Of a stretch of 64,000 nt of DNA, positions 6,830-57,796 are shown piece after piece. This DNA is from a virus. A program made the position numbers and the translations under genes. The notes beneath the pieces were generated by a model. It had not been told where the DNA came from, did no database searches, and saw nothing but the letters and a program-made list of their open reading frames with translations. Position 1 is the stretch's first letter. Each line of letters opens with the position of its first letter. Where the stretch lies: IMG/VR virus record IMGVR_UViG_3300030380_006483; one strand, given 5' to 3'.

Positions 6830-6842
6830 TTTTTAAAAACAT

Positions 6843-6852
6843 TATATTTATA
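6843..6852 (+). promoter_or_regulatory. Putative late promoter motif WATATTTAT(A), representative of about 24 copies
   Basis: The same motif sits upstream of start codons at 6843, 16040, 19732, 23116, 25597, 28053, 28419, 29666, 32747, 34703, 36676, 38501, 41569, 44116, 50786, 53441, 54699, 55401, 57815, 58118, 59902, 60472, 61520 and 63647. Confidence 0.7.
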
Positions 6853-6869
6853 TATAACAAAAATAAACC

Positions 6870-7529: not shown

Positions 7530-7530
7530 T

Positions 7531-8571: not shown

Positions 8572-8574
8572 TGA

Positions 8575-11853: not shown

Positions 11854-13573
11854 TACTGGATTTGAAATATCACAACATGTAGCTCAATATTTTACTACAG
11901 GACCTAATTCAGGTAGTAAAGTAACAAGTAGCTTTGATGTAAATTTAGGTCTCACTCCTTTTAGTGCATCATTAAATGGAGAAGAATTTTTTAATAGGTC
12001 TTATAACCCAGTAACATGTGAACCTGGGTTTGAAGATTGTTTAGTTCCTTTATTAACTAGTTTAACAACAGGATCTAGAAGAGGAAGATTTACTGTAAAT
12101 TATGTTACTCAATCTTCAACAAACACTCCTACTAGAATAACCGCTTCAGTTAGTGATGATATAAATTTTTCATCAGGAAGAACAGAAATATTTTCTGCTT
12201 CAATAGGTACTTTATTTCCAATAACATCTTCCTTTATAAGTGGGACAGTATATTTTAGAGCATTTACATCTTGTAGTGGACCTACCCCTTCACCTAATTC
12301 AGATTTATTATCATTTACTTATGATTTAATCCCTCCATTAAGTAAAAGTACAGTAGAAGTAGTATTTACTAATACTTTATCTTCACCAATGGAAGTAGAA
12401 ATTAGAAGTGAAAGAGGAAATCAAAATTATATTATAGAGGCTAAGGAATCAATTACATATGATTATACAAATAATTCATTTGACCCTGGAGCATGGGTAT
12501 CAACTAATAAATCATCTGATTTAACTGTAACTATAAAAGGAGGATCTAAAAGTACTTATGGTAATTCAATTCAAAGAGTTACTAATGGTGTTATAAAAGA
12601 AACATTTACAAAAGAAGGAGGATTTAATAACCCTACTAGTAGAAGAGATACTAGTGCTAATTACAACCCAGATGTTGGTATTACATTTAAAATTCAACAG
12701 TTAGTATTACCTGAAGGAGATACTACAACAACAACATTATCATTAGTACAAAATACCCCACCCCCACCACCACCAGCGGAACCAACTCCTGTATATACCC
12801 CTTACCCAAGAGCAGTTGTAGGATCTATTCCATATGAAACTGAAGAAGAAGCTTGTGCTGATTCTGGAGTTAATTTTAGAGAAAAAACTTATCAAAAATT
12901 TAAGGGATATTTGTATGATAATATAGAAGATGCTTTAATTGATAATAAAACCACATTTGAATTTTTAAATAATTTTATTCTTACTACTTTAACTGAGTAT
13001 TTAGAAGTAACAAAAGAAGGAAAAATAATAAGGGAAGGAGAAACATGTGATTTACCTCAAATTTCAATAGAAACAAGTAGAGGATCTTATACTGACCAAG
13101 AATCGGCCTGTAGAAGGAAAAAAATTGCAGGAGTTAATTTTAATTTTAAAGATAACACTTTAATAGGATCACGTTTAACAGGTAGATTCCCAGTATTTGA
13201 AGGCATAGGAAGAGGAGGTCGTAATATTATTTTAGAAAATGGTAAAATATTAGCATATGAAACTTGTGGAACTGAATTAACAGATATTCAATATTCTGAA
13301 ATAGGATTTAACAACGAAATATACCCATTAGAAACCCCTGAATTAATTAACCCAAGTCAATTAAGATTTGTTTGTAATTTTTCACAAAGATACATAAACT
13401 ATTCCTTAGGCCCATCAGGGATCGTATATTATGGGTTTAATTATAAAGAAGGTAAATATAAATATGTCCCACTAGGATTAGGACTTAGATGGTATAGAAC
13501 AACAGATGATAAATTTATAATACTTAATAAAGGATTAGTAGTAAATACTATAGATAATATAACATTTTGTTAA
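11846..13573 (+). CDS. Putative virion/fibre-associated protein with poly-Pro hinge and Cys-containing repeats
   Basis: 575 aa. TPPPPPPAEPTP hinge, then repeated Y-x-(T/D)-x-E-x-AC and G.(I/T)...ETC segments. Confidence 0.5.
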   Translation: MANTGFEISQHVAQYFTTGPNSGSKVTSSFDVNLGLTPFSASLNGEEFFNRSYNPVTCEPGFEDCLVPLLTSLTTGSRRGRFTVNYVTQSSTNTPTRITASVSDDINFSSGRTEIFSASIGTLFPITSSFISGTVYFRAFTSCSGPTPSPNSDLLSFTYDLIPPLSKSTVEVVFTNTLSSPMEVEIRSERGNQNYIIEAKESITYDYTNNSFDPGAWVSTNKSSDLTVTIKGGSKSTYGNSIQRVTNGVIKETFTKEGGFNNPTSRRDTSANYNPDVGITFKIQQLVLPEGDTTTTTLSLVQNTPPPPPPAEPTPVYTPYPRAVVGSIPYETEEEACADSGVNFREKTYQKFKGYLYDNIEDALIDNKTTFEFLNNFILTTLTEYLEVTKEGKIIREGETCDLPQISIETSRGSYTDQESACRRKKIAGVNFNFKDNTLIGSRLTGRFPVFEGIGRGGRNIILENGKILAYETCGTELTDIQYSEIGFNNEIYPLETPELINPSQLRFVCNFSQRYINYSLGPSGIVYYGFNYKEGKYKYVPLGLGLRWYRTTDDKFIILNKGLVVNTIDNITFC

Positions 13574-39862: not shown

Positions 39863-41515
39863 ATGTCAAACGTAGTAAATCAACTATTAGAAACTGCAAA
39901 CCCGTACAAATCAGTACAAAAAGATGCTGCTAAATTAGCGGGTAAGTGGGAAAAATCAGGTTTATTAGAAGGTATTTCTAATGAAACTGATAAGTCTAAC
40001 ATGTCGATCATGTTAGAAAACCAAGCTAAACAACTTGTTGTTGAAGCTAACACTACTGGGACAGGTGCAACATTTACTCCAGGTACAGGTGAACAATACG
40101 CTGCTGTAGCGTTACCACTTGTAAGAAAGGTATTTGGACAAATCGCTGCTAAAGAATTCGTTTCTGTACAGCCAATGTCTTTACCTGCTGGTTTAGTATT
40201 TTACCTAGACTTCCAGTACGGAAATTCAAAAACTCCATTCACTGATGGGGATTCAACGTATGGTGATAGCTATGCGGATGGTCACTTTGGTAATACAAAC
40301 GAAGGTGGTCTTTACGGTGCTGGTAAATTCGGATATTCAATTAACCTATTTTCAGCTTCTGTTGCTGACGCTAACCACACTATATCTTCAGCTTCTTATG
40401 CTGATGTAAACTTTGATGCTGATTTATCAGCTTCAGTAGCTGCCGCTCCAGGTAGAATTACTAAAATTTCTGTTAAAACAGGATCTTTATCAGGTGCTGA
40501 TGTAGACGGAGTAAGAGGATGGAGAGTAACTGGTGCTAACGGAGCACTAGCTGCGATCACAGAGGCTTTAAACTTCCCAGCATTAACTAAGATAAACGGA
40601 GATAGTGTTGAATTCTTTGTAACATCATCAGGTGTTGAAAGTGATGAAGACATTACTGTTTTCTATAACAAGCAAACTGCAGATAACGCAAGAGGTGACT
40701 TCGAAGATGGTGCTGATTACTCTTCTCAGACTGGTACTGGTAGAGCAATTAACATCCCAGAAATTGATGTTCAATTAAGAAGTGAAACTATTGCTGCTAA
40801 AACAAGAAAGTTAAAAGCACAATGGACACCAGAATTCTCTCAGGACTTGAATGCATTCCATTCATTAGATGCTGAAGCAGAATTAACTAACATTTTAAGT
40901 GAGTACATTTCATTAGAAATCGATCTTGAAATTTTAGATATGTTAATTGAAAACGTACCTTCAACTCAGGTGGCTAACTGGTCAGCTAAAGTAGGTAATG
41001 AAATTAACGCAGGTGCCACAGCTTTCACATCTAACACAGATGGTGTATACTATACACAAATGAGCTGGTTCCAAACTCTTGGAATTAAATTACAGAAAAT
41101 CTCTAACTTAATCCACCAGAAAACTTTAAGAGGTGGTGCTAACTTTATGGTTGTTTCTCCAACAGTAGCTACAATATTAGAATCTATTCCAGGATTCGCT
41201 GCTGATACTGACGGGGATGCTGCTAAAATGCAATATGCATTTGGTGTACAGAAAATTGGTGCATTAAACAGCAGATATAAAGTTTACAAGAACCCATACA
41301 TGAAAGAAAACACGATCTTGATGGGATTCAGAGGTAATCAATTCCTAGAAAGTGGTGCTGTATATGCTCCATATATTCCATTAATCATGACACCATTAGT
41401 GTATGATCCTAATACTTTCACTCCAAGAAAAGGTATTATGACTAGATACGCTAAGAAAATGGTAAGACCTGAATTCTATGGAAAAGTACATGTTGCAGAC
41501 TTAAACATAATTTAA
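39863..41515 (+). CDS. gp23: Major capsid protein
   Basis: VQPMSLPAGLVFYLDF, KTRKLKAQWTPEFSQDL, YAPYIPL, PRKGIMTRY; probable maturation site LVVE61-A62. Confidence 0.95.
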   Translation: MSNVVNQLLETANPYKSVQKDAAKLAGKWEKSGLLEGISNETDKSNMSIMLENQAKQLVVEANTTGTGATFTPGTGEQYAAVALPLVRKVFGQIAAKEFVSVQPMSLPAGLVFYLDFQYGNSKTPFTDGDSTYGDSYADGHFGNTNEGGLYGAGKFGYSINLFSASVADANHTISSASYADVNFDADLSASVAAAPGRITKISVKTGSLSGADVDGVRGWRVTGANGALAAITEALNFPALTKINGDSVEFFVTSSGVESDEDITVFYNKQTADNARGDFEDGADYSSQTGTGRAINIPEIDVQLRSETIAAKTRKLKAQWTPEFSQDLNAFHSLDAEAELTNILSEYISLEIDLEILDMLIENVPSTQVANWSAKVGNEINAGATAFTSNTDGVYYTQMSWFQTLGIKLQKISNLIHQKTLRGGANFMVVSPTVATILESIPGFAADTDGDAAKMQYAFGVQKIGALNSRYKVYKNPYMKENTILMGFRGNQFLESGAVYAPYIPLIMTPLVYDPNTFTPRKGIMTRYAKKMVRPEFYGKVHVADLNII

Positions 41516-41538: not shown

Positions 41539-41568
41539 AAATCCCGCCCATAAGGCGGGATTTTTTTT
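41539..41568 (+). terminator. Rho-independent terminator after the major capsid gene
   Basis: AAATCCCGCC-CATAA-GGCGGGATTT followed by a T run. Confidence 0.9.
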
Positions 41569-41590
41569 AATATTTATAACAAAATATACT

Positions 41591-44113: not shown

Positions 44114-44144
44114 TATATATTTATTATAGAAATAAAGAAATAAC

Positions 44145-46448
44145 ATGGCAGGAATAAGTACCCAAGGAATTGCTAGTGGAAGTATAATATTTCCAGAACA
44201 TATATTAAGATCAATTGATGCTTTAAATGGTGAAGCAGGACCATTTGATTTTAAACTATCGGGATCTGTAACAGTATCAGGAAGCACAAAAATATCTTCA
44301 GGTAGTGTTATTGAAAATAATAATGCACCTACTGCTTTAATGTATAATACTGCATCGGGTGATATATTTTTTAGTACAGGAAGTTTAGGTGGTGGTGGTG
44401 GATCAGGTACTAGTGGTACTTCAGGTACTTCAGGTACAAGTGGATCATCTGGTTCAAGTGGTACAAGCGGTACAAATGGTAGCTCAGGATCAAGTGGATC
44501 ATCTGGTTCAAGTGGTACAAGCGGTACAAATGGTAGTTCAGGAACTTCAGGTGCAGATGGTAATTTATTTACAACTACATCTTCTACATCTACAGCTATA
44601 GGTACAGGGTCTAAAGGATTTACAGTTGCCGCAGGATTAGCCTTTATAGTAGGACAATCCCTTGTTATAGTAGATGCCTTAAATGCTGCCAATTTTATGA
44701 ATGGTAAAATTACTGCTTATAATAGTGGTACAGGAGCATTAACAGTAAATGTAACATCAGTTACAGGTAGTGGTACTAAATCATCATGGAATATAAGTTT
44801 AGAAGCAGCCCCTGGTACAAATGGTACTAGTGGATCTTCAGGTAGTTCTGGATCAAGTGGATCATCTGGTTCAAGTGGTACAAGTGGGTCTAATGGTACA
44901 GACGGTAGCTCAGGATCAAGTGGTTCAAGTGGTAGTTCAGGAACTTCCGGTGCGGATGGTGATGAATTTACAACAACTTCCTCAACTTCATTAGCAATTG
45001 GAACTGGTGCTAAAACATTAACAGTTGAAGCAGGTTTAGCATATGTAGTAGGTCAATCAGTAGCTATTATTTATGCTTCTGATGCAGATGATAAAATGAT
45101 TGGTAAAATTACTGGTTATAATTCAGGTAATGGAGCCTTATCCGTAACTGTATTATCATCAGCAGGTAGTGGAACCTATTCAAGTTGGAATGTAACTTTA
45201 GAATCAGTCCCGGGTACATCAGGTACTAGTGGTTCTAGTGGATCCTCTGGTACAAGTGGATCTTCAGGTTCCTCAGGTACTAGTGGCTCAAGTGGCTCAA
45301 GTGGAACTAGTGGTACAAATGGTACTTCAGGTTCTTCAGGATCAAGTGGATCATCAGGTACGAGTGGTACAAATGGAACTAGTGGTACAAATGGTACATC
45401 AGGTACAGGAGTAGGATTCCCATTTTCGGGAAGTGCACTACTATCAGGTAGTTTATTAATACATGGAACGGGAGCAGCTTTAAATGTACTTGGTGGAATA
45501 TCTGGATCTTCAATTTCAGGATCATTAACAGGATCATTATTAGGTACAGCTTCAATAGCTAATACAGCTACTACTGCATCTCATATAGTAACAGCTTCAT
45601 TTGCTAATACTACAACAAGTGCTTCTATAGCAACAACTGCGGGTACAGCTTCGGTAGCTGTAAGAGCAACTGCTTTAAGTGCACAAGCTACAGCTTCAAT
45701 AGCAGATAGAGCAACAACAGCATCATTTGCAAGTACGGGTGATGGAACATTTAGTGGATCATTTAGTGGTTCATTCCAAGGAGATGGATCGGACTTAGTA
45801 GGAGCAGGAATTAATACAACCTTTAATAATGAAGTAAGATATTTAGCATCTGATTTAGGAAGTAGTGGTGCGGATGGAAGTGTTGAATTATTATCATCAG
45901 CAACTATGTTTGGTGGATTAACCTGGACAAGAAGTAGTACTACTTTATCAATTAGTAGTTCTGCTCATGGACTATCTAATGGTGATTATGTAGTTATTCA
46001 AAATATGAACCAAAATTACTTATATGCTTCAGCTTCTGCAGTTGGGACAAATACATTCCAAATTACGGGAGTAGCAAATTCAGGAGGTACATCAGGGAAA
46101 AAAGGTGCCTATATACCTGCATTTAAAGTATCATCTTTTACACAAGCAGGTGCAACCATATCATCACCAAGTGCAGGTAATGTTCAATTAATTTCAGCAA
46201 AAGTTACCACGCCAACTAAAACAACAACAACATTTGATTTTACAATGCCGACCTCTAGAGAAAATGGAGCTGGTGCAAATGGATCTTTATATTCACAAAA
46301 CCCACCAATAATACAAGCTTGGGCTTTAAGTAATGGAAACCAAAACACCTCAGCAGTAATAACACTTAACACAAGTTCAAACTTTAATATATTCCAAGTA
46401 GGAGGATTAAGTGCTTTAATAAAATCAATGATTAAAGTAACATTCTAA
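44145..46448 (+). CDS. Fibre protein with three proline-free collagen-like (Gly-Ser/Thr-Ser/Asn)n blocks and two duplicated beta domains
   Basis: G-X-Y blocks of about 17, 16 and 21 triplets; duplicated FTTTSSTS.AIGTG...SSWN..LE domain. Confidence 0.75.
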   Translation: MAGISTQGIASGSIIFPEHILRSIDALNGEAGPFDFKLSGSVTVSGSTKISSGSVIENNNAPTALMYNTASGDIFFSTGSLGGGGGSGTSGTSGTSGTSGSSGSSGTSGTNGSSGSSGSSGSSGTSGTNGSSGTSGADGNLFTTTSSTSTAIGTGSKGFTVAAGLAFIVGQSLVIVDALNAANFMNGKITAYNSGTGALTVNVTSVTGSGTKSSWNISLEAAPGTNGTSGSSGSSGSSGSSGSSGTSGSNGTDGSSGSSGSSGSSGTSGADGDEFTTTSSTSLAIGTGAKTLTVEAGLAYVVGQSVAIIYASDADDKMIGKITGYNSGNGALSVTVLSSAGSGTYSSWNVTLESVPGTSGTSGSSGSSGTSGSSGSSGTSGSSGSSGTSGTNGTSGSSGSSGSSGTSGTNGTSGTNGTSGTGVGFPFSGSALLSGSLLIHGTGAALNVLGGISGSSISGSLTGSLLGTASIANTATTASHIVTASFANTTTSASIATTAGTASVAVRATALSAQATASIADRATTASFASTGDGTFSGSFSGSFQGDGSDLVGAGINTTFNNEVRYLASDLGSSGADGSVELLSSATMFGGLTWTRSSTTLSISSSAHGLSNGDYVVIQNMNQNYLYASASAVGTNTFQITGVANSGGTSGKKGAYIPAFKVSSFTQAGATISSPSAGNVQLISAKVTTPTKTTTTFDFTMPTSRENGAGANGSLYSQNPPIIQAWALSNGNQNTSAVITLNTSSNFNIFQVGGLSALIKSMIKVTF

Positions 46449-46457
46449 TAGCTTGTT

Positions 46458-48470
46458 ATGGCATATAGAGATCAAAGATTTATAGGTGTTATTAATGCCG
46501 ATAGTATTGTTGATAGTAACTTTATTATCGGAACTGGTAATTTTGCAGATGGATCCACCTTAATTGCTGATGTTAATATATCTTCAGGAGATGAAGATTT
46601 AATTAGACCTGGTCAAATTGTATTTTCAGTAGCAGGTGCATTGCCTGCAAATACAAAAGTATCATCTGTTAATGCCGATCGTACACAAATTACTTTAGAT
46701 AAAGCCGCTACATCTACCGCGGCGGGTGATACATTTGGTTTATCAACTCCTTCAGGATCTTACTTTTTTCAATCTGCTAGTTTTAATGATCCAAATAATA
46801 ATTTAACTGTAAATAATATTAGTGGTAGTGATTCGGGATCTAGTTTTGCTATAGTAGGTGTAGCAAAAAAGAGTAATGCTACCATAAAAAATAGATTCCA
46901 TCTTTATACAGTATCTGAAGTAGTTCAAAGAAACATAGGATCTGCTGAAATTTCATTTTTTGTAGAATGGGGAGAACAAGGTGAAGAATCGGGTTCAGGT
47001 GATGAATTACAAACTGCAGAAAAAGAAGTTGCAATTATAGATTTAACTGATACTGGTTCTATAGCTCCGGGATTCTCATTAGGGGTTGCTGGAATGGAAA
47101 GTTTAAAGGCCGGTTCCGAATATGCTGGTTATAATATAGCAATTAATCAATACTTATCTGACTTATCAAGTTCAGTAGCTTCATCATTAACTGGATCATT
47201 ATCAGGATCAGTTACCGGTTCTTTAATTGGAACTGCTACATCTGCATCAACAGCAGTATTAGCCCAAACTGCTTCAGTTGCTACTAGGGCAAATACTTTA
47301 GCTCCAACTGCAACAGCTTCACGAGCAGATAGTGCAACCACAGCATCATTCCCTGAACGAGGAGTAATAGGTGGTAGTGCTACTCAAAATATTATTACCC
47401 TTAATAGAGGAGATGGTACTACTATAACTTTAGAAACATCAGTTTCTGGTTCTGTAGAATCTGCCTCAATTGCAACTGTAGCTAGTACTGTTAGAAATGG
47501 AGGTAGTGGTTCATTTAGTGGTTCATTCCAAGGAGATGGTTCAAGTTTAACAGGATTAGTTACTGCCTCACATGCTTTAACCGCTGTATCTGCTTCATTT
47601 GCTACTTCAGCATCAGTAGAGATAATAAAAGAATTAAGTTCATCATTTGCTGATACAGCTTCTGTAGCACAAAGTGGTACAGGATCATTTAGTGGCTCAT
47701 TTACAGGTTCAGGTGACTTTGATGATGTTAGAGTTAAACAATACATTTATCATAAAGGTGATGAAAATACATTTATAAACTTTACTGATAATAGGATTAG
47801 ATTTAATGCTGGTGGTATTAACTTTATGAGTTTGGAAGATGATGGTAGTGCTCCTTTTCCTTTTGTAATTAATAATGGTGGTAATAGAATTAACTTTAGG
47901 GTCATGGATAGAAATTCAGACCTTCTTTTAAAAACTGATTCTGAAGCACTTAATGTTGGATTATATTATGCAGGTGGTAAAAAATTCGAAACAATATCAA
48001 AGGGTGTTAATGTAACAGGTAGTATCGATGTATCAGGTAGTATAGATGTAACAGGTAGTGTCTCCGCATCTGAAGATATAGTTGTTTCAGGAAATGTATT
48101 TGTAGATGGAACTTTAGATGCTGCAACTAAAAACTTTAGAATTGATCATCCAACCATGGAAGGTTATTATTTAATTCACTCATCATTAGAAGGACCAGAA
48201 AGAGGAATATATTATAGAGGTAAATTAAAAACAAATAATATTATATACTTACCGGATTATTGGAATGAATTAACAGATGAAACAGATATTACAGTTCAAC
48301 TTACACCTATAGGAAATGCCTGTCAACATTTTGTTAAATCTGTAACTAAAAAAGAAATTGAAGTAGGTTGTGATTGTGGAAAACCACATTGCTATTATAT
48401 AGTTCATGCTCAAAGATTTAATGAAGGTAGATTAGATATTTTAAAACCAAAAATTTCAAAAAGGTTGTAA
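46458..48470 (+). CDS. Tail fibre/spike-like protein with C-terminal chaperone-like domain
   Basis: TAS/SAS repeats, SGSFSGSFQGDGS motif, C-terminal KNFRIDHP...HSSLEGPE...VQLTPIG. Confidence 0.65.
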   Translation: MAYRDQRFIGVINADSIVDSNFIIGTGNFADGSTLIADVNISSGDEDLIRPGQIVFSVAGALPANTKVSSVNADRTQITLDKAATSTAAGDTFGLSTPSGSYFFQSASFNDPNNNLTVNNISGSDSGSSFAIVGVAKKSNATIKNRFHLYTVSEVVQRNIGSAEISFFVEWGEQGEESGSGDELQTAEKEVAIIDLTDTGSIAPGFSLGVAGMESLKAGSEYAGYNIAINQYLSDLSSSVASSLTGSLSGSVTGSLIGTATSASTAVLAQTASVATRANTLAPTATASRADSATTASFPERGVIGGSATQNIITLNRGDGTTITLETSVSGSVESASIATVASTVRNGGSGSFSGSFQGDGSSLTGLVTASHALTAVSASFATSASVEIIKELSSSFADTASVAQSGTGSFSGSFTGSGDFDDVRVKQYIYHKGDENTFINFTDNRIRFNAGGINFMSLEDDGSAPFPFVINNGGNRINFRVMDRNSDLLLKTDSEALNVGLYYAGGKKFETISKGVNVTGSIDVSGSIDVTGSVSASEDIVVSGNVFVDGTLDAATKNFRIDHPTMEGYYLIHSSLEGPERGIYYRGKLKTNNIIYLPDYWNELTDETDITVQLTPIGNACQHFVKSVTKKEIEVGCDCGKPHCYYIVHAQRFNEGRLDILKPKISKRL

Positions 48471-48501: not shown

Positions 48502-50787
48502 ATGAAAATTCAAGCCCACACAAGTTTTATTGGTACTACTGGGTATGCTAACCATGCTCAATCTTTTTTTACTGAATTAGATAAACTAACACCTATTAAG
48601 GTTAGAAATGCTACAGTAGGAAAATCATGGAACTGGCCTAATAATACCCCTCATGACAAAGAACCTTACATAACCCCTCAAATGAAAAAAATGCTTCATT
48701 TACAAACATTATTTGAAGCAGATAAAAGTAGAAATGATTATCCTATATACCATCATAAAGAAAATTTCCAATCTGATATAGATATAATTTTAGAGGAACA
48801 TGATCACCATTATTTTTATGATTCTTATAATGGTTATAAAATAGGATATAATGTTTGGGAATCAACTAAATATTCTAATCAATTTTTTAATCAGTTACTT
48901 ACCTTAGATGAATTATGGGTTCCTACTGAATGGCAAAAAGAAATATCCATCAAACAAGGATACCCAGAAAATAAAATATTTGTAATTCCAGAAGGAGTAG
49001 ATGGTAAAATATTTAAACCAAATCCAAAATTAAAAAAACCTAATAAATTTCAATTTATTATAGTAGGTAGGTGGGATTATAGAAAAGGTATAAAAGAAAG
49101 TATTGAAGGTTTTTTAAAAGCATTCCCCGATAATCAAGATGTTGAATTATTATTAAACGTAGAAAACCCATATCCTACAGATGGTATGAATTCAACAGAA
49201 GAACGTTTAAAACACTATAATTTAGAAGATAATAGAATAAAAATATTAAAATTTTTAAATAGAAAACAATATATTAAACTATTACAAAATGCTAATGTAT
49301 TAATTTCTTGTGCTAAAGCAGAAGGATGGAATTTACCTTTAATAGAATCATTAGCTTGTGGTACTCCTTCAATTTATACTAAATGTTCAGGGCAATTAGA
49401 ATTTACTAAAAGTAAAGGATTAGGAGTTGAAATATTAGGAGAAGAAAAAGCAGGAGAAAACATACCTGGTAATTTTTATACTCCTGATTTAAATGATTTA
49501 ATTAAAAAAATAAAAGATTCTTATAATAACTATAATATATGGAAAGAATGGCATTTAAATCGTTCTAAAGAAATAAGAGAAGAGTATTCATGGAAAAATC
49601 AAGCAATAAAAGCATATAATCGTTTACAACAAATAAAAATTACTCCTAAAATTAAAACACCTATATTAGATGTAAATTTTGTAGATGGTCCTTATGCTTG
49701 TTTAAGAAATTCTAATCAAGAATATTTAGTAGATTTTATAAATCAAGACACTAACCAAAGTGAATATTCAGTTAATTTAAAAAATGACCATTGGGGTAAA
49801 ACATTTCATAAATTTTTTATAAATTGGGATATACAAATAAAAGATAATTTTGGAGAAATAATTTATTCCCACAAATATAATGCATCTGGTAAAAGAGTCT
49901 ATATAGCTTTTGGTTCCAAAGCTTTAGGTGATACTTTAGCTTGGTTTCCTTATGCTTTAGAGTTTAAGAAAAAACACAATTGTCATGTAATTGTATCTAC
50001 CTTTTGGAATAAGTTTTTTAAAGAAAAATATCCTGAATTAGAATTTGTATCTCCCGGAGCTACTGTTCCTAATTTATATGCTATGTATGAAATAGGTTGG
50101 TATTATGATGATAATGATCAATTAGATAGGTTTAAACAACCATATGACCCTAAACAATTTACTTTACAACAAACAGCAACTAATATACTAGGATTAGAAT
50201 ATAAAGAAATTATACCTAAAATAAATTATGAAGTAAAGGATCGTCCTTTTAAAGAAAAATATATATGTATATCTCCACATGCTTCTGCAAGCGCTAAATA
50301 TTGGCACCATCCTACTGGGTGGCAAACTATTATTAATTATATTAATAATGTTTTAGGGTATAAAGTAGTAATGATTTCTAAAGAAAAATATAATGATAAT
50401 TGGGAAACTGATAAATTACCTTTACAAAAGAAATTTCAAAATATAATAGATGCTACAGGTGATCACCCTATAGAAGATATAATTAATATGTTACACCATT
50501 CAGAAATGTATATAGGTGTATCTAGTGGTTTAGCTTGGTTATCTTGGTCAATTAAAAATCCTGTAGTGTTAATATCTGGATTTAGTTCTGATTGGACTGA
50601 ATTTTCCTCAAATATTGAAAGAATTATTAATAAAAATGTATGCAATTCTTGTTTTAATAATTTTAAATTAGATGCAGGTGATTGGAATTGGTGTCCTGTC
50701 CACAAAGATACTCCAAGACAATTTGAATGCACTAAAAAAATATTACCTGAAACCGTAATAGAAGGTATTACTCGTAGACTTAGTTAA
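48502..50787 (+). CDS. Fusion of a GT4 glycosyltransferase and an autotransporter O-heptosyltransferase-like (TibC/Aah, BAHT) domain
   Basis: N-half: YNVWES, ELWVP, GRWDYRKG, AEGWNLPLIE (E-x7-E). C-half: KRVYIAFGSKALGDTLAWFPY, IGVSSGLAWL, and four-Cys motif CNSC-x13-C-x11-C at 50641-50730. Confidence 0.85.
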   Translation: MKIQAHTSFIGTTGYANHAQSFFTELDKLTPIKVRNATVGKSWNWPNNTPHDKEPYITPQMKKMLHLQTLFEADKSRNDYPIYHHKENFQSDIDIILEEHDHHYFYDSYNGYKIGYNVWESTKYSNQFFNQLLTLDELWVPTEWQKEISIKQGYPENKIFVIPEGVDGKIFKPNPKLKKPNKFQFIIVGRWDYRKGIKESIEGFLKAFPDNQDVELLLNVENPYPTDGMNSTEERLKHYNLEDNRIKILKFLNRKQYIKLLQNANVLISCAKAEGWNLPLIESLACGTPSIYTKCSGQLEFTKSKGLGVEILGEEKAGENIPGNFYTPDLNDLIKKIKDSYNNYNIWKEWHLNRSKEIREEYSWKNQAIKAYNRLQQIKITPKIKTPILDVNFVDGPYACLRNSNQEYLVDFINQDTNQSEYSVNLKNDHWGKTFHKFFINWDIQIKDNFGEIIYSHKYNASGKRVYIAFGSKALGDTLAWFPYALEFKKKHNCHVIVSTFWNKFFKEKYPELEFVSPGATVPNLYAMYEIGWYYDDNDQLDRFKQPYDPKQFTLQQTATNILGLEYKEIIPKINYEVKDRPFKEKYICISPHASASAKYWHHPTGWQTIINYINNVLGYKVVMISKEKYNDNWETDKLPLQKKFQNIIDATGDHPIEDIINMLHHSEMYIGVSSGLAWLSWSIKNPVVLISGFSSDWTEFSSNIERIINKNVCNSCFNNFKLDAGDWNWCPVHKDTPRQFECTKKILPETVIEGITRRLS

Positions 50788-50825
50788 TATTTATTAGGGA
50801 ATAACCCTAAGTAAAAAAAATATTA

Positions 50826-53072
50826 ATGGCTTCAACAATAAGTACATCAGGTATAGCGAGTGGTAGTGTCATTAAGGCCCAACATGCCTTAAGAATTATT
50901 AACTCTTTAAATGGAACGGCAAATAATGATATCTATGTAACTGGTTCTGTAGGAATTACAGGTAGTTTATCAATAAAAAGTGGTAGTTTAGCGGAAACTG
51001 GTTCCGGTTTTGATTTTTTATTAGCATATGATACAGGTAGTGGAGATGTAAAATTTACAAGAAGAAATTCAACTTCTGGTACATCAGGTACTTCAGGTAG
51101 TTCAGGTTCAAGTGGTACAAGTGGTTCATCTGGTTCAAGTGGAACAAGTGGTACAAATGGTTCATCTGGTTCCTCCGGTTCAAGTGGAACAAGTGGTACC
51201 AATGGTACTAATGGTTCATCAGGTACATCTGGTTCATCCGGTAGTTCAGGAACAAGTGGAGAAAAAGGAGGAGTAGAATATAACTTTGATAACAATACTA
51301 GTGATGCAGATCCAGGAAATGGAGAAATAAAATATAATAATGCATCTATTGCTTCTGTAACTTTTATTTATATAGATAATTTAGATCAAAGAGGGGCAGA
51401 TCAAACTGCATGGTATGCTACTTGGGATGATTCAACAAATAGTGCTGACCGTGGACAAATAATTGTAACCAGTAGGGATACAGGAACAGTTGTAAATTCA
51501 TTTAAAATAACAGGTGCAGTAACAGCAGCTACTGGGTATTATAAAATACCTGTAGCTTATATAACGGGTACTATACCATCTAATGGTAATAAACTATCAG
51601 TCCAATTTTCAAGATCTGGTAATGCAGGTACTTCTGGTACAAGCGGTACTAATGGTTCATCAGGTACTTCAGGTGGATTAAATATATCTAATAATGTTAC
51701 AGGATCTTTACTATTAGCTAGTGGTTCAACTAGTGATCTTAATGGTGCCGCAGGGTTAAAATATACAGGTAGTATTTTCCAAATTACAGGATCAGAAACT
51801 AGAATTTCAAGTTCAGTTAGTATAACTGGAAGTAATGCTCCCGCATTAAGAGTTAGTGGCAGTACAACTTTAACAGGATCAGTTACTATTAGTGGTAGTG
51901 TTTCAGCTTCTAATGTTTATTCTATTGGTGATGCTTTTTTGGGAACTGGAACTGGTAATGATGAGGTAAAATTAGTTCATGCTGGAGATACTGATACTTA
52001 TTTACTATTTGATACAAACCATGTAAATTTAGTTGCAGGTGATAAGTCAGTCATTAAATATGATCAGACACTATCAGATAAAAAAATAATGATTAACAAC
52101 ACCAATGCTGACCTTGACACGCAAATAATGGCGGACAATGGTAATGTAATTATTCATGTTGATGCTGGAGATAATAGAGTAGGAATAAATAAAACAACCC
52201 CAAATAACGCTTTAGACGTAAAAGGAGGTACAAGTATAACAGGTTCAACTACAATTACAGGATCATTACACGTAAGTAGTAGTAATATTTTTATCCCCGC
52301 ATTTAGAGTTACTGGTAGTACAACATTAACAGGTAGTTTATTTGTTAGTGGTGGAATGAAAGTTTCTGGAAGTAACGTTCATAGTGGAAGTACAATACAA
52401 CAAGGTAGTATAAGACTAAAAGGTAGCGCCCATATTTCAGGATCCGAGGCTATATCGGGCTCATTATTAATAACAGGTAGTAATGCCCCAGCATTAAGAA
52501 TTAGTGGTAGTACAGCATTAACAGGTAGTTTACTACAAAGTGGTAGTACACAAATTACAGGTTCTACTCTCTTATCAGGTTCATTACTTTTAACAGGTAG
52601 TTCTACCTTAGCATTAAGGATAACTGGTAGTACAGCATTAACGGGAAGTTTATTACAAAGTGGTAGTACTGTAACTACAGGTAGTGTAGAAATTTCTGGT
52701 AGTTTAGGAGTAGGAACAGCTGCATCAGGTGTTATAGGTGCAATTTTAGCTGCAAACGATGTTGTAGCATTTGCTTCTTCAGATGAAAGATTAAAGGAAA
52801 ATATAACATTAATAGAAAATCCATTAGATAAAATTATTAAAATATCTGGATATGAATATGATTGGGTCCCAATGGAAGGAGTACATGTACATTCAGGACA
52901 CGATATAGGAGTAATAGCACAAGAAGTAGAAAAAGTATTTCCAGAAATTGTAGCAGACAGAGATAATGGATATAAAGCAGTAAAATATGAAAAATTAGTA
53001 TCCGTGTTAATAGAAGGTATAAAGGAATTAAAACAAGAAGTAGATTTACTTAAGAAAAAAATAAATGGCTAA
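50826..53072 (+). CDS. Tail fibre with collagen-like GTS/GSS blocks, TGS beta repeats and a C-terminal intramolecular chaperone (peptidase S74)
   Basis: N-terminus is homologous to the 44145 product; SSDERLKENI...GVIAQEVEKVFPEIV...YKAVKYEKL. Confidence 0.8.
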   Translation: MASTISTSGIASGSVIKAQHALRIINSLNGTANNDIYVTGSVGITGSLSIKSGSLAETGSGFDFLLAYDTGSGDVKFTRRNSTSGTSGTSGSSGSSGTSGSSGSSGTSGTNGSSGSSGSSGTSGTNGTNGSSGTSGSSGSSGTSGEKGGVEYNFDNNTSDADPGNGEIKYNNASIASVTFIYIDNLDQRGADQTAWYATWDDSTNSADRGQIIVTSRDTGTVVNSFKITGAVTAATGYYKIPVAYITGTIPSNGNKLSVQFSRSGNAGTSGTSGTNGSSGTSGGLNISNNVTGSLLLASGSTSDLNGAAGLKYTGSIFQITGSETRISSSVSITGSNAPALRVSGSTTLTGSVTISGSVSASNVYSIGDAFLGTGTGNDEVKLVHAGDTDTYLLFDTNHVNLVAGDKSVIKYDQTLSDKKIMINNTNADLDTQIMADNGNVIIHVDAGDNRVGINKTTPNNALDVKGGTSITGSTTITGSLHVSSSNIFIPAFRVTGSTTLTGSLFVSGGMKVSGSNVHSGSTIQQGSIRLKGSAHISGSEAISGSLLITGSNAPALRISGSTALTGSLLQSGSTQITGSTLLSGSLLLTGSSTLALRITGSTALTGSLLQSGSTVTTGSVEISGSLGVGTAASGVIGAILAANDVVAFASSDERLKENITLIENPLDKIIKISGYEYDWVPMEGVHVHSGHDIGVIAQEVEKVFPEIVADRDNGYKAVKYEKLVSVLIEGIKELKQEVDLLKKKING

Positions 53073-53442
53073 AAATGTAAGAATCGTTCCTGCATCAGGG
53101 TCAATATTCTTCACTGGTGATGGATTTGATGTTACTGGTTCTATTAAATTACAAACTGTAGGTAGTACTGAAAATGTACAATTTATAGATGGTACTTCAA
53201 ATGAATCAATAATTTTAATTCATAAAGCATCTAGGAGAGTTGGAATAGGTTTAGTATCCGCTTCTGCTAAATTAGAAGTATCTTCCTCTAATACTGAAGA
53301 TGCTTTAAAAGTTGGAACCCCAGATGGTGATTTAAAAGTAAATAATAAAGGAATTTTACAATTATCGGAATACCAAGGAAATGCTACCGCTGTTGAGGGT
53401 GGTATTTTATATAGTGGAAGTAATCTATTCATCGGAGATTAA
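53065..53442 (+). CDS. Small virion structural protein (fibre-associated)
   Basis: 125 aa; RVGIG...LEV motif typical of fibre beta repeats. Confidence 0.55.
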   Translation: MAKNVRIVPASGSIFFTGDGFDVTGSIKLQTVGSTENVQFIDGTSNESIILIHKASRRVGIGLVSASAKLEVSSSNTEDALKVGTPDGDLKVNNKGILQLSEYQGNATAVEGGILYSGSNLFIGD

Positions 53443-55427: not shown

Positions 55428-57746
55428 ATGGCAATTACTTTAAGAACAGGTTTAGGTAGAAAGCTTACCATCGCAGAGATGGATGAAAACTTTACTTTTT
55501 TAAGTAGCTCCTATGTAGTAAACAGTGTGACGGCTTCAATGACGGCTGGTTCAGCTTCAGTTGCTACAAGAGCTAATGGTTTAGCTCCAACGGTAACAGC
55601 TTCATTTGCTGATACAACTACATCGGCTTCTATATCTACCACTGCTCAAACATCATCCGTTGCTACAAGAGCTAATACTTTAGCTCCAACTGCAACAGCT
55701 ACATCTGCATCAACAGCAGTATTAGCCCAAACTGCTTCCGTTGCTACTAGGGCAAATGGTTTAGCTCCTACAGTTACAGCAACATCAGCCTCTACTGCTA
55801 TTGCAGCTCAAACAGCCTCAGTGGCTACAAGAGCAAATGGCTTAGCACCAACAGTTACAGCAACTTCTGCTTCAACTGCTATTGCAGCTCAAACAGCCTC
55901 AGTCGCTACAAGAGCAAATGCTTTAGCCCCTACAGTAACTGCCACTTCAGCTTCCGTAGCTGCAAGAGCAACTACTTTAAGTGCACAAGCTACAGCTTCA
56001 TTTGCAGACGTAGCAGGCACGGTACATGATGGTAACATAACTGCTACAAAAATTGCAGCAGATGCCGTTATTACAACTAAAATATTAAATAGTAATGTAA
56101 CAAATGCTAAATTAGCAAATGATAGTGTTACTATAGGTTCAACAGAAGTAGATTTAGGAGCTACAGCAGCTTCATTAACAGGGTTGACAAGCATTTCTGC
56201 TCAAACTGGTAGTTTTGTATTACAAGTATTTGAATCCGCTTCTACTATAATAACATCTGGATCAAACATTCTTGGTGATAAAGCAACTGATATTCAACAA
56301 ATTACAGGTAGTTTACTACAAACAGGTAGTATGACTGTTATAGGTAATATATCAGCTAGTGTAGGAGGATTTAGTGGTTCATTCCAAGGAGATGGTACAT
56401 TATTAACAGGTGTAATAGCTTCAGGTTCGATTCAATCAGCCTCTGTTGCTGCAAGAGCAACTACTTTAAGCCCAGCGGCTACGGCTGCATCATCATCAAC
56501 GGCAATATTAGCCCAAACAGCTTCTGTTGCTACAAGAGCAAATGCTTTAGCCCCTACAGTAACTGCCACTTCAGCCTCTGTTGCTGCAAGAGCAACTACT
56601 TTAAGTGCTGCGGCAACAGCAAGTTTTGCAGATAAAGCAAACGTCGCTGTAACATCAAATGTAATTCCTGTAACAGTAGTTAATGATGGAGGAAACAAAT
56701 ATGCATTTAATGGAGTAACTGCTCCAAAAATATCACTTAATAGAGGAGAATTATACAGATTTGATCTATCAGATTCAAGTAATAATGGTCACCCACTTAG
56801 ATTTAGATTACTTAATGATACCTCATACACACCAGGAGTAAATGCAGTAGGTACACCAGGTCAAGCAGGTGCATATGTGGATTTTGATGTTAATTTTTCA
56901 ACATCAGCATCTTTAAAATATTACTGTACATCCCATGGAAATGGAATGGGTAATACAGCTCAAGTACCAGATTTTCTTAATAATAGTGGTTCATTTAGTG
57001 GTTCTTATCAAGGTGATGGTTCTAATATAACTGCAGTATCAGCAATTTCATCATCTACAGCAGTATTAGCTCAAACAGCCTCTGTTGCTACTAGAGCTAA
57101 TGGTTTAGCACCAACAGTTACAGCATCATTTGCAGATTTAGCAAGTAATGTACGTAACCTTTCCATTTCAGGATCTGGAGCTATATCAGGTTCATTATTA
57201 GTAACAGGAAGTTCTGCTCTAGCAATAAGAGTTAGTGGTAGTACAGCTTTAACAGGTAGTATTTTCCAAACAGGATCATTTAACGTCTCGGGTAGTAGTA
57301 TGTTATCTGGATCTGTAAGTATTACTGGTAGCACAAATATAATTGGTGCCGTAAGTTCAAGTGATACAGGTAGGTTTAAGAGTTTAGGTATTAATGTTGC
57401 CCCTTCAGGTGTAGCCGGAGCTATATTAGCTACTAATGATGTTGTTGCATTTGCCTCTTCAGATGAAAGATTAAAGGAAAATCTAGAACCAATTGGAAGT
57501 GCAGTTGAAAAAGTAGAACAAATAACAGGATATACTTATAATTGGATTCCTATGGAAGATATTCACGTATATGGTGATATGAAAGATATAGGTGTAATAG
57601 CACAAGAAGTAGAAAAAGTATTACCTGAAATAGTATCAGATAGAGAAAATGGATATAAAGCAATTAAATATGATAAATTGACAGCTGTATTAATCCAAGC
57701 AGTAAAAGAATTATCTGATAGAGTTAAAACTTTAGAAAATAAATAA
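55428..57746 (+). CDS. Tail fibre with ASVATRAN repeats, a cupredoxin-like domain and a C-terminal S74 chaperone
   Basis: About 22-aa tandem repeats; GHPL...YYCTSHGNGMG; SSDERLKEN...GVIAQEVEKVLPEIV. Confidence 0.8.
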   Translation: MAITLRTGLGRKLTIAEMDENFTFLSSSYVVNSVTASMTAGSASVATRANGLAPTVTASFADTTTSASISTTAQTSSVATRANTLAPTATATSASTAVLAQTASVATRANGLAPTVTATSASTAIAAQTASVATRANGLAPTVTATSASTAIAAQTASVATRANALAPTVTATSASVAARATTLSAQATASFADVAGTVHDGNITATKIAADAVITTKILNSNVTNAKLANDSVTIGSTEVDLGATAASLTGLTSISAQTGSFVLQVFESASTIITSGSNILGDKATDIQQITGSLLQTGSMTVIGNISASVGGFSGSFQGDGTLLTGVIASGSIQSASVAARATTLSPAATAASSSTAILAQTASVATRANALAPTVTATSASVAARATTLSAAATASFADKANVAVTSNVIPVTVVNDGGNKYAFNGVTAPKISLNRGELYRFDLSDSSNNGHPLRFRLLNDTSYTPGVNAVGTPGQAGAYVDFDVNFSTSASLKYYCTSHGNGMGNTAQVPDFLNNSGSFSGSYQGDGSNITAVSAISSSTAVLAQTASVATRANGLAPTVTASFADLASNVRNLSISGSGAISGSLLVTGSSALAIRVSGSTALTGSIFQTGSFNVSGSSMLSGSVSITGSTNIIGAVSSSDTGRFKSLGINVAPSGVAGAILATNDVVAFASSDERLKENLEPIGSAVEKVEQITGYTYNWIPMEDIHVYGDMKDIGVIAQEVEKVLPEIVSDRENGYKAIKYDKLTAVLIQAVKELSDRVKTLENK
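55560..56000 (+). repeat. Tandem about 66-nt repeat encoding (A)QTASVATRANGLAPTVTATSASTA
   Basis: Five to six consecutive units, with further copies at about 56529, 57070, 47235, 53600 and 45646. Confidence 0.85.
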
Positions 57747-57767: not shown

Positions 57768-57796
57768 AAAAAAGGAGAACATTTGTTCTCTTTTTT
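57768..57796 (+). terminator. Rho-independent (possibly bidirectional) terminator after the fibre cluster
   Basis: A-run, GAGAAC-ATTT-GTTCTC, T-run. Confidence 0.65.

What the first reader, a model, noticed from the sequence alone, without database searches (positions are those of the whole stretch)
48502..50787. GT4 + TibC/Aah-like heptosyltransferase fusion inside a Ser/Thr-rich tail-fibre cluster: candidate phage virion-glycosylation system
Seen: the only enzyme gene in a 14-kb run of fibre genes. It has two complete GT domains, and the second carries the four-Cys motif CNSC-x13-C-x11-C and SKALGDTLAWFPY. All neighbours are extremely rich in SGS/TGS/TAS motifs. Known: BAHT enzymes (Aah, TibC) are iron-containing O-heptosyltransferases that serially modify Ser in bacterial autotransporter adhesins; GT4 enzymes are retaining transferases able to extend glycans; virion glycosylation is documented in some mycobacteriophages. 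Inference: the phage has repurposed an adhesin-glycosylation enzyme to decorate its own fibres with a two-step glycan, for folding, protease resistance, receptor binding or camouflage. An apparent host-type promoter would have the enzyme ready before the late substrates appear.
Basis: partly seen in the sequence, partly recalled or inferred. Interest (0 to 1): 0.86.

Follow-up and report, generated by a model that had tools for sequence, protein, structure and literature searches.

The report
Phage TibC-like enzyme beside collagen-like fibres
An uncultured marine T4-like phage encodes one protein that joins two sugar-adding enzymes, one a true relative of the bacterial adhesin-glycosylating enzyme TibC; it sits between two tail-fibre genes with proline-free Gly-Ser/Thr-Ser collagen-like tracts and most likely sugar-coats those tracts, though no sugar has been seen.

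Summary
ORF 48502-50787 (761 aa) is an N-terminal GT4 glycosyltransferase fused to a C-terminal TibC/Aah-type (BAHT) domain. The BAHT half scores 312 bits on TIGR04414 (cut-off 200), its model matches TibC at TM 0.81-0.83, and the catalytic Asp and all four iron-finger Cys are kept.

- **Acceptor:** the best candidates are the (Gly-Ser/Thr-Ser)n collagen-like tracts of the two flanking fibre genes, not general Ser/Thr richness. All 30 such DNA tracts in the window lie in those two genes. The same holds genome-wide in three related phages. The closest cultured relative, which lacks the enzyme, has none.
- **Family position:** 27 of 80 bacterial BAHT loci have a (G-S/T-S)n gene within 1.3 kb. 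None of about 28-30 classical-type loci does; there, 6 of 7 neighbouring ORFs tested carry AIDA repeats. The phage enzyme therefore belongs to a separate, collagen-linked branch.
- **Sugar:** heptose is not supported. TibC's adenine-contact Arg-286 is Ile here, and a complete relative has no gmhA.
- **Promoter:** the "host-type promoter" is no better than chance. The gene appears to ride on the late fibre transcript.

This scan has already described the same pairing on other DNA (291 notes, at least 232 genomes). I found no paper on it. All evidence is computational.

The parts
44117..44125 (+). Promoter-like motif ATATTTATT, 20 nt upstream of fibre gene 44145. Inferred start of the transcription unit that carries the enzyme gene.
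   Evidence: ATATTTATW occurs 25 times against 15.8 expected. 23 hits are on the + strand and 22 lie just upstream of ORF starts. It is exact at the equivalent place in 7 of 9 relatives.
44145..46448 (+). Fibre protein P0121 (767 aa; 35% Ser+Thr, 17% Gly) with three collagen-like tracts. Candidate acceptor.
   Evidence: PF01391 Collagen 67.7 bits; tail-fibre PHROGs; sequence.
44379..44567 (+). Collagen-like tract 1 of P0121 (21 Gly-X-Y triplets; Y mostly Ser).
   Evidence: DNA pattern hits.
44814..44966 (+). Collagen-like tract 2 of P0121 (17 triplets).
45213..45410 (+). Collagen-like tract 3 of P0121 (22 triplets).
46458..48470 (+). Fibre-like protein P0122 (670 aa; 22% Ser+Thr; no Gly-X-Y tract). 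It starts 9 nt after P0121 and has no promoter-like motif.
   Evidence: phrog_17490 and phrog_28536 at the C-terminus.
48502..50787 (+). GT4 + BAHT fusion enzyme P0001 (761 aa). Soluble, with no transmembrane segment.
48502..49635 (+). GT4 domain (residues 1-378). E-x7-E motif E274...E282 and GRWDYRKG at 189-196, invariant in 32 homologues.
   Evidence: PF00534, phrog_2170; invariant columns; Foldseek hits PglA, chlorovirus NY2A GT, MshA, PimA.
49654..50787 (+). BAHT domain (residues 385-761): beta-barrel, GT-B catalytic core with Asp477 (codon 49930-49932), and iron-finger Cys714/717/731/743 (50641-50730).
   Evidence: TIGR04414 312 bits; TibC 4rap E=1e-51; Foldseek TM 0.81-0.83; column counts.
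50787..50795 (+). Promoter-like motif ATATTTATT overlapping the enzyme's stop codon, 31 nt upstream of fibre gene 50826.
50826..53072 (+). Fibre protein P0123 (748 aa) with collagen-like tracts and a C-terminal Peptidase_S74 chaperone domain. Candidate acceptor.
   Evidence: PF01391 33.1 bits; PF13884 59.6 bits; long-tail-fibre PHROGs.
51078..51275 (+). Collagen-like tract 1 of P0123 (22 triplets).
51618..51680 (+). Collagen-like tract 2 of P0123 (7 triplets).
53065..53442 (+). Conserved 125-aa ORF that follows the S74 fibre in every relative. Function unknown.
55428..57746 (+). Second S74-type fibre (772 aa; 27% Ser+Thr; no Gly-X-Y tract).
   Evidence: PF13884 58.4 bits.

Best explanation
The gene encodes a soluble, two-headed protein O-glycosyltransferase made late in infection on the same transcript as fibre genes. 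Proposed mechanism: the C-terminal BAHT domain, with Asp477 as catalytic base, puts a first sugar on serine hydroxyls in the proline-free (Gly-Ser/Thr-Ser)n collagen-like tracts of the flanking fibre proteins P0121 and P0123, in the cytoplasm before or during fibre trimerisation. The N-terminal retaining GT4 domain then extends the glycan. The sugar-coated tracts end up on the virion. The likeliest benefit is stabilisation or solubilisation of a collagen helix that has no proline. Protease shielding or receptor interaction are also possible. Shown here: domain identity, intact catalytic motifs, the fold, and a genomic pairing between this BAHT branch and (G-S/T-S)n proteins in phages and bacteria. 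Inferred: the acceptor, the order of the two steps, the timing and the benefit. Unknown: the sugars. ADP-heptose is doubtful for this clade.
For: 1. Family and fold: TIGR04414 312 bits against a cut-off of 200. TibC E=1e-51. AF2 pLDDT 88, and Foldseek to TibC TM 0.81-0.83 over about 383 columns.
2. TibC's functional residues, as listed in PMC4358343: Asp-110, Trp-305, Phe-368 and the four Cys are invariant in 107 homologues; Lys-230 is kept in 106 of 107; Thr-226 is Ser or Thr.
3. GT4 half: E-x7-E and GRxxxRKG are invariant.
4. Tract placement: all 30 (G[ST][ST])x4 DNA matches in the window (0 in shuffles) lie in the two genes that bracket the P0122-enzyme pair.
5. Whole records: in a 166-kb complete relative all 18 matches lie within 4.3 kb upstream or 1 kb downstream of the enzyme. 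In G004 all 13 lie in the gene just upstream. In Microcystis phage Mel-JY01 all 17 flank it. Flavobacterium phage immuto has no such enzyme and 0 matches.
6. More distant viral contigs (44-51% identity): by my hand count, 23 of 30 loci with a full 8-kb flank hold a collagen-like ORF.
7. Bacteria: 31 of 80 BAHT loci hold such an ORF, 27 of them within 1.3 kb. These include small Sec-signal (GTS)n proteins in methanotroph chromosomes.
8. Contrast class: 0 of about 28-30 loci with TibC-like Arg-286 plus Ser hold such an ORF. There, 6 of 7 neighbouring large ORFs carry AIDA repeats. That class is one side of a branch in the tree (SH-like 84).
9. Architecture: GT4 is always first and BAHT always last. 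Methyltransferase, deacetylase and extra GT modules are inserted between them in relatives, up to 2859 aa. This fits a glycan-building enzyme.
10. Expression: the promoter-like motif precedes both flanking fibre genes but never the enzyme gene, in the window and in 9 relatives.
11. Precedent: the C. difficile sgtA gene lies next to bclA3, and SgtA O-glycosylates Thr (and Ser) in the collagen-like repeats of BclA3 (PMC7157674).
Against: There is no biochemical or proteomic evidence of any glycan on any fibre of this lineage. Within the window's own lineage the synteny is simply inherited, so the independent support comes only from distant phages and bacteria. TibC's known substrate is a folded beta-helix, not a collagen-like chain. 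TibC Arg-286, whose mutation abolished or largely diminished activity, is Ile here. The beta-hairpin thumb needed for the TibC dodecamer is not kept: its tip is W634/E635, there is a 5-residue insertion, and the model shows no hairpin. In megaphage LR756501 most collagen-like tracts (1440 matches) lie far from its BAHT gene. About 7 of 30 distant viral loci and 19 of about 50 non-classical bacterial loci show no tract within the flank.
Confidence: 0.6

Rival explanations
1. The enzyme glycosylates virion proteins, but the acceptors are not the collagen-like tracts. They would be the Ser-rich beta-structured repeats (ITGS / SGSL type) found in all the fibres, closer in shape to TibC's beta-helix substrate, or other structural proteins.
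For: TibC recognises a folded beta-helix and modifies Ser in its loops (PMC4358343). P0123 and the 55428-57746 fibre carry long xTGSxxxSGS repeat regions. All fibre ORFs are 18-35% Ser+Thr. The beta-barrel and iron finger, which bind the substrate helix in TibC, are retained.
Against: General Ser/Thr richness is equally present in immuto, which lacks the enzyme. The feature that tracks the enzyme across phages and bacteria is the (G-S/T-S)n tract. The methanotroph partner proteins are small, and the (GTS)n tract is their only repeat.
Confidence: 0.15
2. The enzyme modifies the host cell envelope (LPS core, capsule or a host surface protein) during infection, for example to block superinfection or keep progeny from sticking. 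Its position among fibre genes would then be incidental.
For: GT9 relatives are LPS heptosyltransferases; there are weak hits to RfaQ and RfaF. PHROGs files the GT4 half under 'moron, auxiliary metabolic gene and host takeover'. A relative carries a 20-kb nucleotide-sugar island of the kind often read as LPS-related.
Against: The match is to the protein-modifying BAHT equivalog, far above LPS heptosyltransferase models (312 bits against 33 or less). BAHT-specific modules are kept. There is no membrane segment. The gene appears to lie in a late structural transcription unit. The pairing with collagen-like genes recurs in unrelated genomes.
Confidence: 0.1
3. The enzyme glycosylates phage DNA, as the T4 glucosyltransferases do.
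For: T4-like phages are the classic case of DNA glucosylation, and those enzymes also have a GT-B fold (general knowledge).
Against: There is no similarity to the T4 alpha- or beta-glucosyltransferases. The complete relative G001 and Mel-JY01 have no ThyA/dCMP-hydroxymethylase family gene that could make hydroxymethyl-pyrimidine. Bacterial homologues sit next to secreted repeat proteins.
Confidence: 0.02

Closest known systems
TibC-TibA and Aah-AIDA-I of E. coli (bacterial autotransporter heptosyltransferases, BAHT; TIGR04414; PDB 4RAP/4RB4; PMC4358343)
   Same: True homology of the C-terminal half: 312 bits, TM 0.81-0.83, about 29% identity. Kept features are the N-terminal beta-barrel, the GT-B core, catalytic Asp-110, Lys-230, Trp-305, Phe-368 and the four-Cys iron finger. 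As with these enzymes, the gene lies next to a Ser-rich repeat protein that ends up on a surface.
   Different: It is fused behind a GT4 domain. The neighbour is a collagen-like phage fibre, not an AIDA-repeat autotransporter. Arg-286 (adenine contact) is Ile and Pro-300 is Ser. The thumb hairpin for the dodecamer is not kept. It lies on the other side of the tree from the AIDA-linked class. The donor sugar is unknown.
SgtA-BclA3 of Clostridioides difficile, and BclA of Bacillus anthracis (glycosylated collagen-like spore proteins; PMC7157674; Daubenspeck 2004 as cited in PMC11923368)
   Same: A glycosyltransferase gene lies next to a collagen-like (Gly-X-Thr) protein gene. The enzyme O-glycosylates Thr and Ser within the triplet repeats of a surface filament.
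   Different: SgtA is a GT-A O-GlcNAc transferase unrelated to BAHT. Its repeats are Gly-Pro-Thr (proline-containing), and the system is bacterial spores rather than phage fibres.
Mycobacteriophage virion glycosylation (Che8, Corndog, Myrna; Freeman et al. 2023, recalled from my own knowledge and listed in the search)
   Same: Phage-encoded glycosyltransferases (with a methyltransferase) decorate the phage's own structural proteins. The GT4 half here finds glycosyltransferases of Streptomyces and Rhodococcus phages at 24-26% identity.
   Different: Those glycans sit on capsid and tail-tube subunits. No BAHT domain or collagen-like acceptor is involved. The hosts are actinobacteria.
Giant-virus-encoded glycosylation (chlorovirus capsid, Mimivirus fibrils; PMC9614988)
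   Same: The virus encodes its own glycosyltransferases and nucleotide-sugar pathways for its own surface proteins. The GT4 half resembles chlorovirus NY2A GT 3OY2 in fold, and a relative carries a 20-kb sugar island.
   Different: Those are eukaryotic viruses, and there is no BAHT-type initiating enzyme.

Membership tests
BAHT (TIGR04414, TibC/Aah) | Score above the curated equivalog cut-off | tested here: met
   312.4 bits against 200; residues 405-757 cover profile positions 26-372 of 374.
BAHT (TIGR04414, TibC/Aah) | Catalytic base Asp-110, and sugar/phosphate contacts Thr-226, Lys-230 and Trp-305 | tested here: met
   These map to D477, S595, K599 and W679. Across 107 homologues D and W are invariant, K is kept in 106, and the Thr position is Ser or Thr.
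BAHT (TIGR04414, TibC/Aah) | Arg-286, the adenine N1 contact taken to explain ADP-sugar specificity | tested here: not met
   It is Ile660 here. Across the family the column reads I 75, R 18, T 7, V 6, A 1. Arg is paired with Gly at the Pro-300 column in every case; non-Arg residues mostly go with Ser.
BAHT (TIGR04414, TibC/Aah) | Four-Cys iron finger (Cys-339/342/358/370) | tested here: met
   C714, C717, C731 and C743 are aligned and invariant in 107 of 107. Iron binding itself cannot be tested here.
BAHT (TIGR04414, TibC/Aah) | N-terminal beta-barrel plus GT-B core fold | tested here: met
   The AF2 model shows strands 388-470. Foldseek aligns about 383 columns to TibC chains of 380-390 residues, TM 0.81-0.83.
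BAHT (TIGR04414, TibC/Aah) | Beta-hairpin thumb (Phe-265/Val-266) and dodecameric ring | tested here: inconclusive
   The tip residues are W634/E635 with a 5-residue insertion. The model shows a short helix and coil instead of a hairpin at 627-648.
BAHT (TIGR04414, TibC/Aah) | Partner substrate is an AIDA-repeat autotransporter encoded nearby | tested here: not met
   The neighbours are collagen-like/S74 fibres. AIDA repeats were found beside 6 of 7 tested classical-type bacterial homologues, and those form the other side of the tree.
BAHT (TIGR04414, TibC/Aah) | Donor is ADP-heptose | not testable with these tools
   No gmhA was found in a complete 166-kb relative or in Mel-JY01. The host's pathway is unknown.
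GT4 retaining glycosyltransferases (PF00534) | Pfam score above the gathering threshold, GT-B fold, and E-x7-E motif | tested here: met
   51.7 bits against 26.4. E274-x7-E282 and G189-R-x3-R-K195 are invariant. Foldseek hits PglA, MshA and PimA at E=1e-11 to 1e-13.
Phage virion glycosylation systems (mycobacteriophage type) | Glycan demonstrated on virion proteins and dependent on the phage's own GT | not testable with these tools
   This needs mass spectrometry of virions. The only cultured carrier found in the phage collection is Microcystis phage Mel-JY01.

The most novel reading that the evidence does not exclude
A distinct branch of the TibC family, spread through aquatic phages and many bacteria, is the dedicated glycosyltransferase of a previously unrecognised class of proline-free 'glyco-collagens', (Gly-Ser/Thr-Ser)n. 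In this reading, sugars on the Y-position serines take the triple-helix-stabilising role that hydroxyproline plays in animals and glycosylated threonine plays in vent-worm cuticle collagen. In the window's clade the enzyme would also have switched from ADP-heptose to another nucleotide sugar (Arg-286 to Ile, with Ser at the Pro-300 position), possibly one supplied by the phage's own deoxy-sugar island.
Probability: 0.3. Interest if true: 0.8.

Novelty: new variant of a known kind. Interest (0 to 1): 0.62.

Why it matters
If true, tailed phages of aquatic bacteria would routinely sugar-coat their tail fibres with their own enzymes. Virion glycosylation is so far documented only for some actinobacteriophages. 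The TibC family would gain a second, probably larger, substrate class beyond pathogen adhesins. It would also explain how proline-free collagen-like helices, common in phage fibres and in bacterial secreted proteins, can be stable. Fibre glycans would bear on host range, on resistance to proteases and on recognition of phages by grazers or immune systems. The idea is directly testable, because a cultured carrier (Microcystis phage Mel-JY01) and cultured methanotrophs with the bacterial version exist.

Tried and rejected
- **No whole genome:** none is held for the window.
- **No close cultured relative:** megablast of the fibre cluster against cultured phages found nothing.
- **T4 late promoter:** TATAAATA is not enriched (24 found, 23 expected). 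Its occurrences are mostly the reverse reading of the real motif ATATTTATW.
- **Sigma-70-like promoter:** the site before the gene is no better than chance.
- **Heptose pathway:** no gmhA in five related records. The 'cytidylyltransferase-like' gene near the Mel-JY01 enzyme was noted but not resolved.
- **DNA glycosylation:** rejected (plus the bacterial contexts).
- **Literature:** searches for a phage BAHT, for Mel-JY01, and for collagen-like proteins with heptosyltransferases found nothing relevant.
- **Unassigned ORFs:** PHROGs gave no assignment for the large upstream ORFs at 79-13573.
Full report
**What is there**

The window is part of an uncultured T4-like myovirus of about 30% G+C, with all genes on one strand. 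It has a Gp23-type major capsid protein at 39863-41515. That protein is 57.6% identical to the capsid protein of Flavobacterium phage immuto and 50.8% identical to that of Microcystis phage Mel-JY01. No whole genome is held for it.

ORF 48502-50787 encodes 761 residues. Residues 1-378 are a GT4 glycosyltransferase. PF00534 scores 51.7 bits and phrog_2170 covers residues 7-376. The E274-x7-E282 and G189-R-x3-R-K195 motifs are invariant among 32 homologues.

Residues 385-761 belong to the TibC/Aah (BAHT) family. TIGR04414 scores 312 bits against a cut-off of 200, and phmmer finds TibC (PDB 4RAP) at E=1e-51. An AlphaFold model (pLDDT 88.2) superposes on TibC with TM 0.81-0.83 over about 383 columns, including the N-terminal beta-barrel. 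The protein has no membrane segment.

**How TibC-like is it?**

I took the functional residues from the TibC structure paper (PMC4358343) and compared them across 107 homologues.

| TibC residue | Role | Here | Across 107 homologues |
|---|---|---|---|
| Asp-110 | catalytic base | D477 | invariant |
| Trp-305 | sugar contact | W679 | invariant |
| Phe-368 | – | F741 | invariant |
| Cys-339/342/358/370 | iron finger | C714/717/731/743 | invariant |
| Lys-230 | phosphate contact | K599 | 106 of 107 |
| Thr-226 | phosphate contact | S595 | Ser or Thr |
| Arg-286 | adenine contact | I660 | I 75, R 18, T 7, V 6, A 1 |
| Pro-300 | heptose stereoselectivity | S674 | S 84, G 23 |

Two features differ from TibC. 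First, Arg-286, which the paper uses to explain ADP specificity and whose mutation abolished or largely diminished activity, is Ile-660 here. Arg at that column is always paired with Gly at the Pro-300 column; non-Arg residues mostly go with Ser. Second, the beta-hairpin thumb that builds the TibC dodecamer is not recognisable. Its tip is W634/E635, there is a 5-residue insertion, and the model shows no hairpin. The enzyme is thus a real family member with an intact catalytic machine, but its nucleotide sugar and quaternary structure may differ.

**Surroundings**

The enzyme lies in a 13.6-kb run of fibre genes.
- P0121 (44145-46448) has three collagen-like tracts.
- P0122 (46458-48470) is fibre-like.
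- P0123 (50826-53072) has collagen-like tracts and a Peptidase_S74 chaperone domain.
- A second S74 fibre lies at 55428-57746.

The collagen-like tracts have almost no proline. Their X position is Ser or Thr and their Y position is mostly Ser.

**Promoter**

The sigma-70-like site before the gene (9 of 12 matches) is not above chance: 68 such sites were found in the region against 77 expected.

Instead, a motif ATATTTATW occurs 25 times against 15.8 expected. 23 occurrences are on the coding strand, and 22 of those lie 10-30 nt upstream of ORF starts. It precedes P0121 (at 44117) and P0123 (at 50787) but not P0122 or the enzyme gene. In 9 relatives it is again exact before the flanking fibre genes in 7-8 loci and never closer than 2 mismatches before the enzyme gene. 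I infer that the enzyme is co-transcribed with P0121 and P0122 as a late gene.

**What tracks the enzyme?**

General Ser/Thr richness does not. The fibres of immuto, which has no homologue of the enzyme, are 18-34% Ser+Thr yet contain no Gly-X-Y run.

The collagen-like tract does. Written as DNA, (G[ST][ST])x4 gave the following counts.

| Record | Enzyme present | Matches | Where |
|---|---|---|---|
| Window | yes | 30 (0 in shuffles) | all inside P0121 and P0123 |
| G001 (complete 166-kb relative) | yes | 18 | all within 4.3 kb upstream or 1 kb downstream of the enzyme |
| G004 | yes | 13 | all in the gene just upstream |
| Mel-JY01 | yes | 17 | all flank the enzyme |
| immuto | no | 0 | – |
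| LR756501 (735-kb megaphage) | yes | 7 + 1440 | 7 lie 5 kb from its BAHT gene; 1440 lie in a giant gene far away |

Among more distant viral contigs (44-51% identity), by my hand count 23 of 30 loci with a full 8-kb flank hold a collagen-like ORF, usually a giant one 3.7-5.7 kb upstream.

**Bacteria**

At least 577 stretches in GTDB genomes encode relatives. Of the best 80 loci, 31 hold an ORF with (G[STN][STN]) repeated at least 4 times, and 27 of those lie within 1.3 kb of the BAHT gene. In methanotroph chromosomes these are small proteins with a Sec signal peptide, a (GTS)n tract and a globular domain.

By contrast, none of the roughly 28-30 loci with the TibC-like combination (Arg-286 plus Ser at the Pro-300 column) holds such an ORF. 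These come from Bradyrhizobium, Burkholderia, Trinickia and Selenomonadales. There, 6 of 7 neighbouring large ORFs carry AIDA repeats, with or without an autotransporter beta-domain.

In a FastTree of 126 sequences, that AIDA-linked class is one side of a single branch (SH-like support 84). All phage enzymes and all collagen-linked bacterial enzymes lie on the other side. The phage enzyme is therefore not a recently captured adhesin enzyme. It belongs to a separate, widespread branch whose recurrent partner is a (G-S/T-S)n protein.

**Architecture in relatives**

GT4 is always N-terminal and BAHT always C-terminal. Between them, relatives insert FkbM or class-I methyltransferases, a second GT4, DUF6625, a PIG-L deacetylase and a CmcI-like methyltransferase. 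One protein reaches 2859 residues. The BAHT domain alone finds 1529 clusters at 50% identity, with lengths of 370-2033 residues. This modularity fits an enzyme that starts and then tailors a glycan.

**Sugar**

No gmhA was found in five related records, including the complete G001. G001 instead has a 20-kb island about 90 kb from the enzyme. The island encodes:
- Gmd-like, GDP-fucose-synthase-like, dTDP-glucose-dehydratase-like and RfbH-like enzymes;
- a GT10-like transferase and a methyltransferase;
- an APS kinase;
- a beta-phosphoglucomutase/nucleotidyltransferase fusion.

The donor sugars therefore remain open, and heptose is not supported for this clade.

**Mechanism proposed**

Late in infection the soluble enzyme is made together with the fibres. 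The BAHT domain O-glycosylates serines of the collagen-like tracts, and the GT4 domain extends the glycan.

There are precedents for glycosylated collagen-like tracts. SgtA acts on BclA3 GPT repeats, and its gene lies next to the substrate gene (PMC7157674). BclA of B. anthracis carries oligosaccharides, and vent-worm cuticle collagen has glycosylated threonine in its helix-stabilising positions (references listed in PMC11923368). By analogy I suggest the glycan stabilises or solubilises a proline-free triple helix. That step is inference only.

**Rivals**

- Other Ser-rich fibre repeats as acceptors (0.15).
- Modification of the host envelope (0.10).
- DNA glycosylation (0.02). G001 and Mel-JY01 lack any ThyA/hydroxymethylase-family gene.

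**Novelty**

I found no paper on a phage BAHT or on a link between BAHT and collagen-like proteins. Automated JGI annotation already names these proteins 'autotransporter strand-loop-strand O-heptosyltransferase'.

This scan has described the same pairing before on other DNA: 291 notes in at least 232 genomes. The present window is one more instance. I re-tested the pairing independently here in viral and bacterial genomes, added the contrast with the AIDA-linked class, and added the transcription-unit evidence.

Virion glycosylation as such is known for mycobacteriophages. I therefore rate this a new variant of a known kind, of moderately high interest, resting entirely on computation.

Noticed in passing
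window, 22 intergenic sites (e.g. 6844, 16041, 23117, 29667, 36677, 41570, 44117, 50787, 53442, 55402, 57816, 59903, 61521, 63648): The motif ATATTTATW sits 10-30 nt upstream of most structural-gene starts (25 hits against 15.8 expected; 23 on the + strand). It is probably this lineage's late promoter. It reads as the reverse complement of T4's TATAAATA.
   Followed up: partly
L001 (Microcystis phage Mel-JY01, PP395634.1) 635-3052 +: An 805-aa + strand ORF (41% Ser+Thr, 222 collagen-like residues) just upstream of the enzyme is not annotated. A minus-strand 'hypothetical protein' (739-2298) is annotated across it instead, which is probably a mis-call caused by the repeat.
   Followed up: partly
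L035 (G001:C1:27000-46999), a complete 166-kb relative: A 20-kb nucleotide-sugar island with Gmd-like, Fcl-like, dTDP-glucose dehydratase-like and RfbH-like enzymes, a GT10-like transferase, a methyltransferase, an E1/transketolase pair, an APS kinase, a 2OG-Fe oxygenase and a beta-phosphoglucomutase/nucleotidyltransferase fusion.
   Followed up: partly
L018 270-8849 +: A 2859-aa single protein that strings together GT4, three FkbM methyltransferase stretches, DUF6625, a PIG-L deacetylase, a CmcI-like methyltransferase and a C-terminal BAHT domain.
   Followed up: no
L065 9220-9930 (-), L059 9166-10059 (-), L051 6787-7776 (+), L043 6932-7792 (+): Methanotroph chromosomes (Methylomicrobium, Methylobacter, Methylococcales) encode small Sec-signal proteins with long (GTS)n or (GTA/GTT)n tracts directly beside a stand-alone BAHT gene.
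   Followed up: partly
LR756501.1 (735-kb uncultured megaphage), about 103.5 kb onwards, minus strand: A giant collagen-like gene region gives 1440 overlapping (G[ST][ST])x4 matches, far from that phage's BAHT gene at 580 kb.
   Followed up: no
L014 6848-9160: In one relative the enzyme gene is split into two ORFs (487 and 234 aa). This is either a frameshift or an assembly error.
   Followed up: no
alignment columns equivalent to P0001 residues 660 and 674: The TibC Arg-286 and Pro-300 columns co-vary across phage and bacterial homologues: Arg is paired with Gly or Ser, and Ile/Val/Thr with Ser or Gly, by clade. This hints at different donor sugars in different subclades.
   Followed up: partly
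window 57769-57796 and about 41541-41569: Strong terminator-like hairpins followed by T-runs sit after fibre gene 55428-57746 and after the capsid gene. Each is followed directly by the ATATTTATA motif.
   Followed up: no
L039 (contig binned as Winogradskyella sp. MAG): The best 'bacterial' BAHT hit (48% identity) is a 17-kb contig with a collagen-like ORF. It is binned with a flavobacterial MAG and may be a phage contig. This is a weak hint that the host is a flavobacterium, in line with the capsid similarity to Flavobacterium phage immuto.
   Followed up: no
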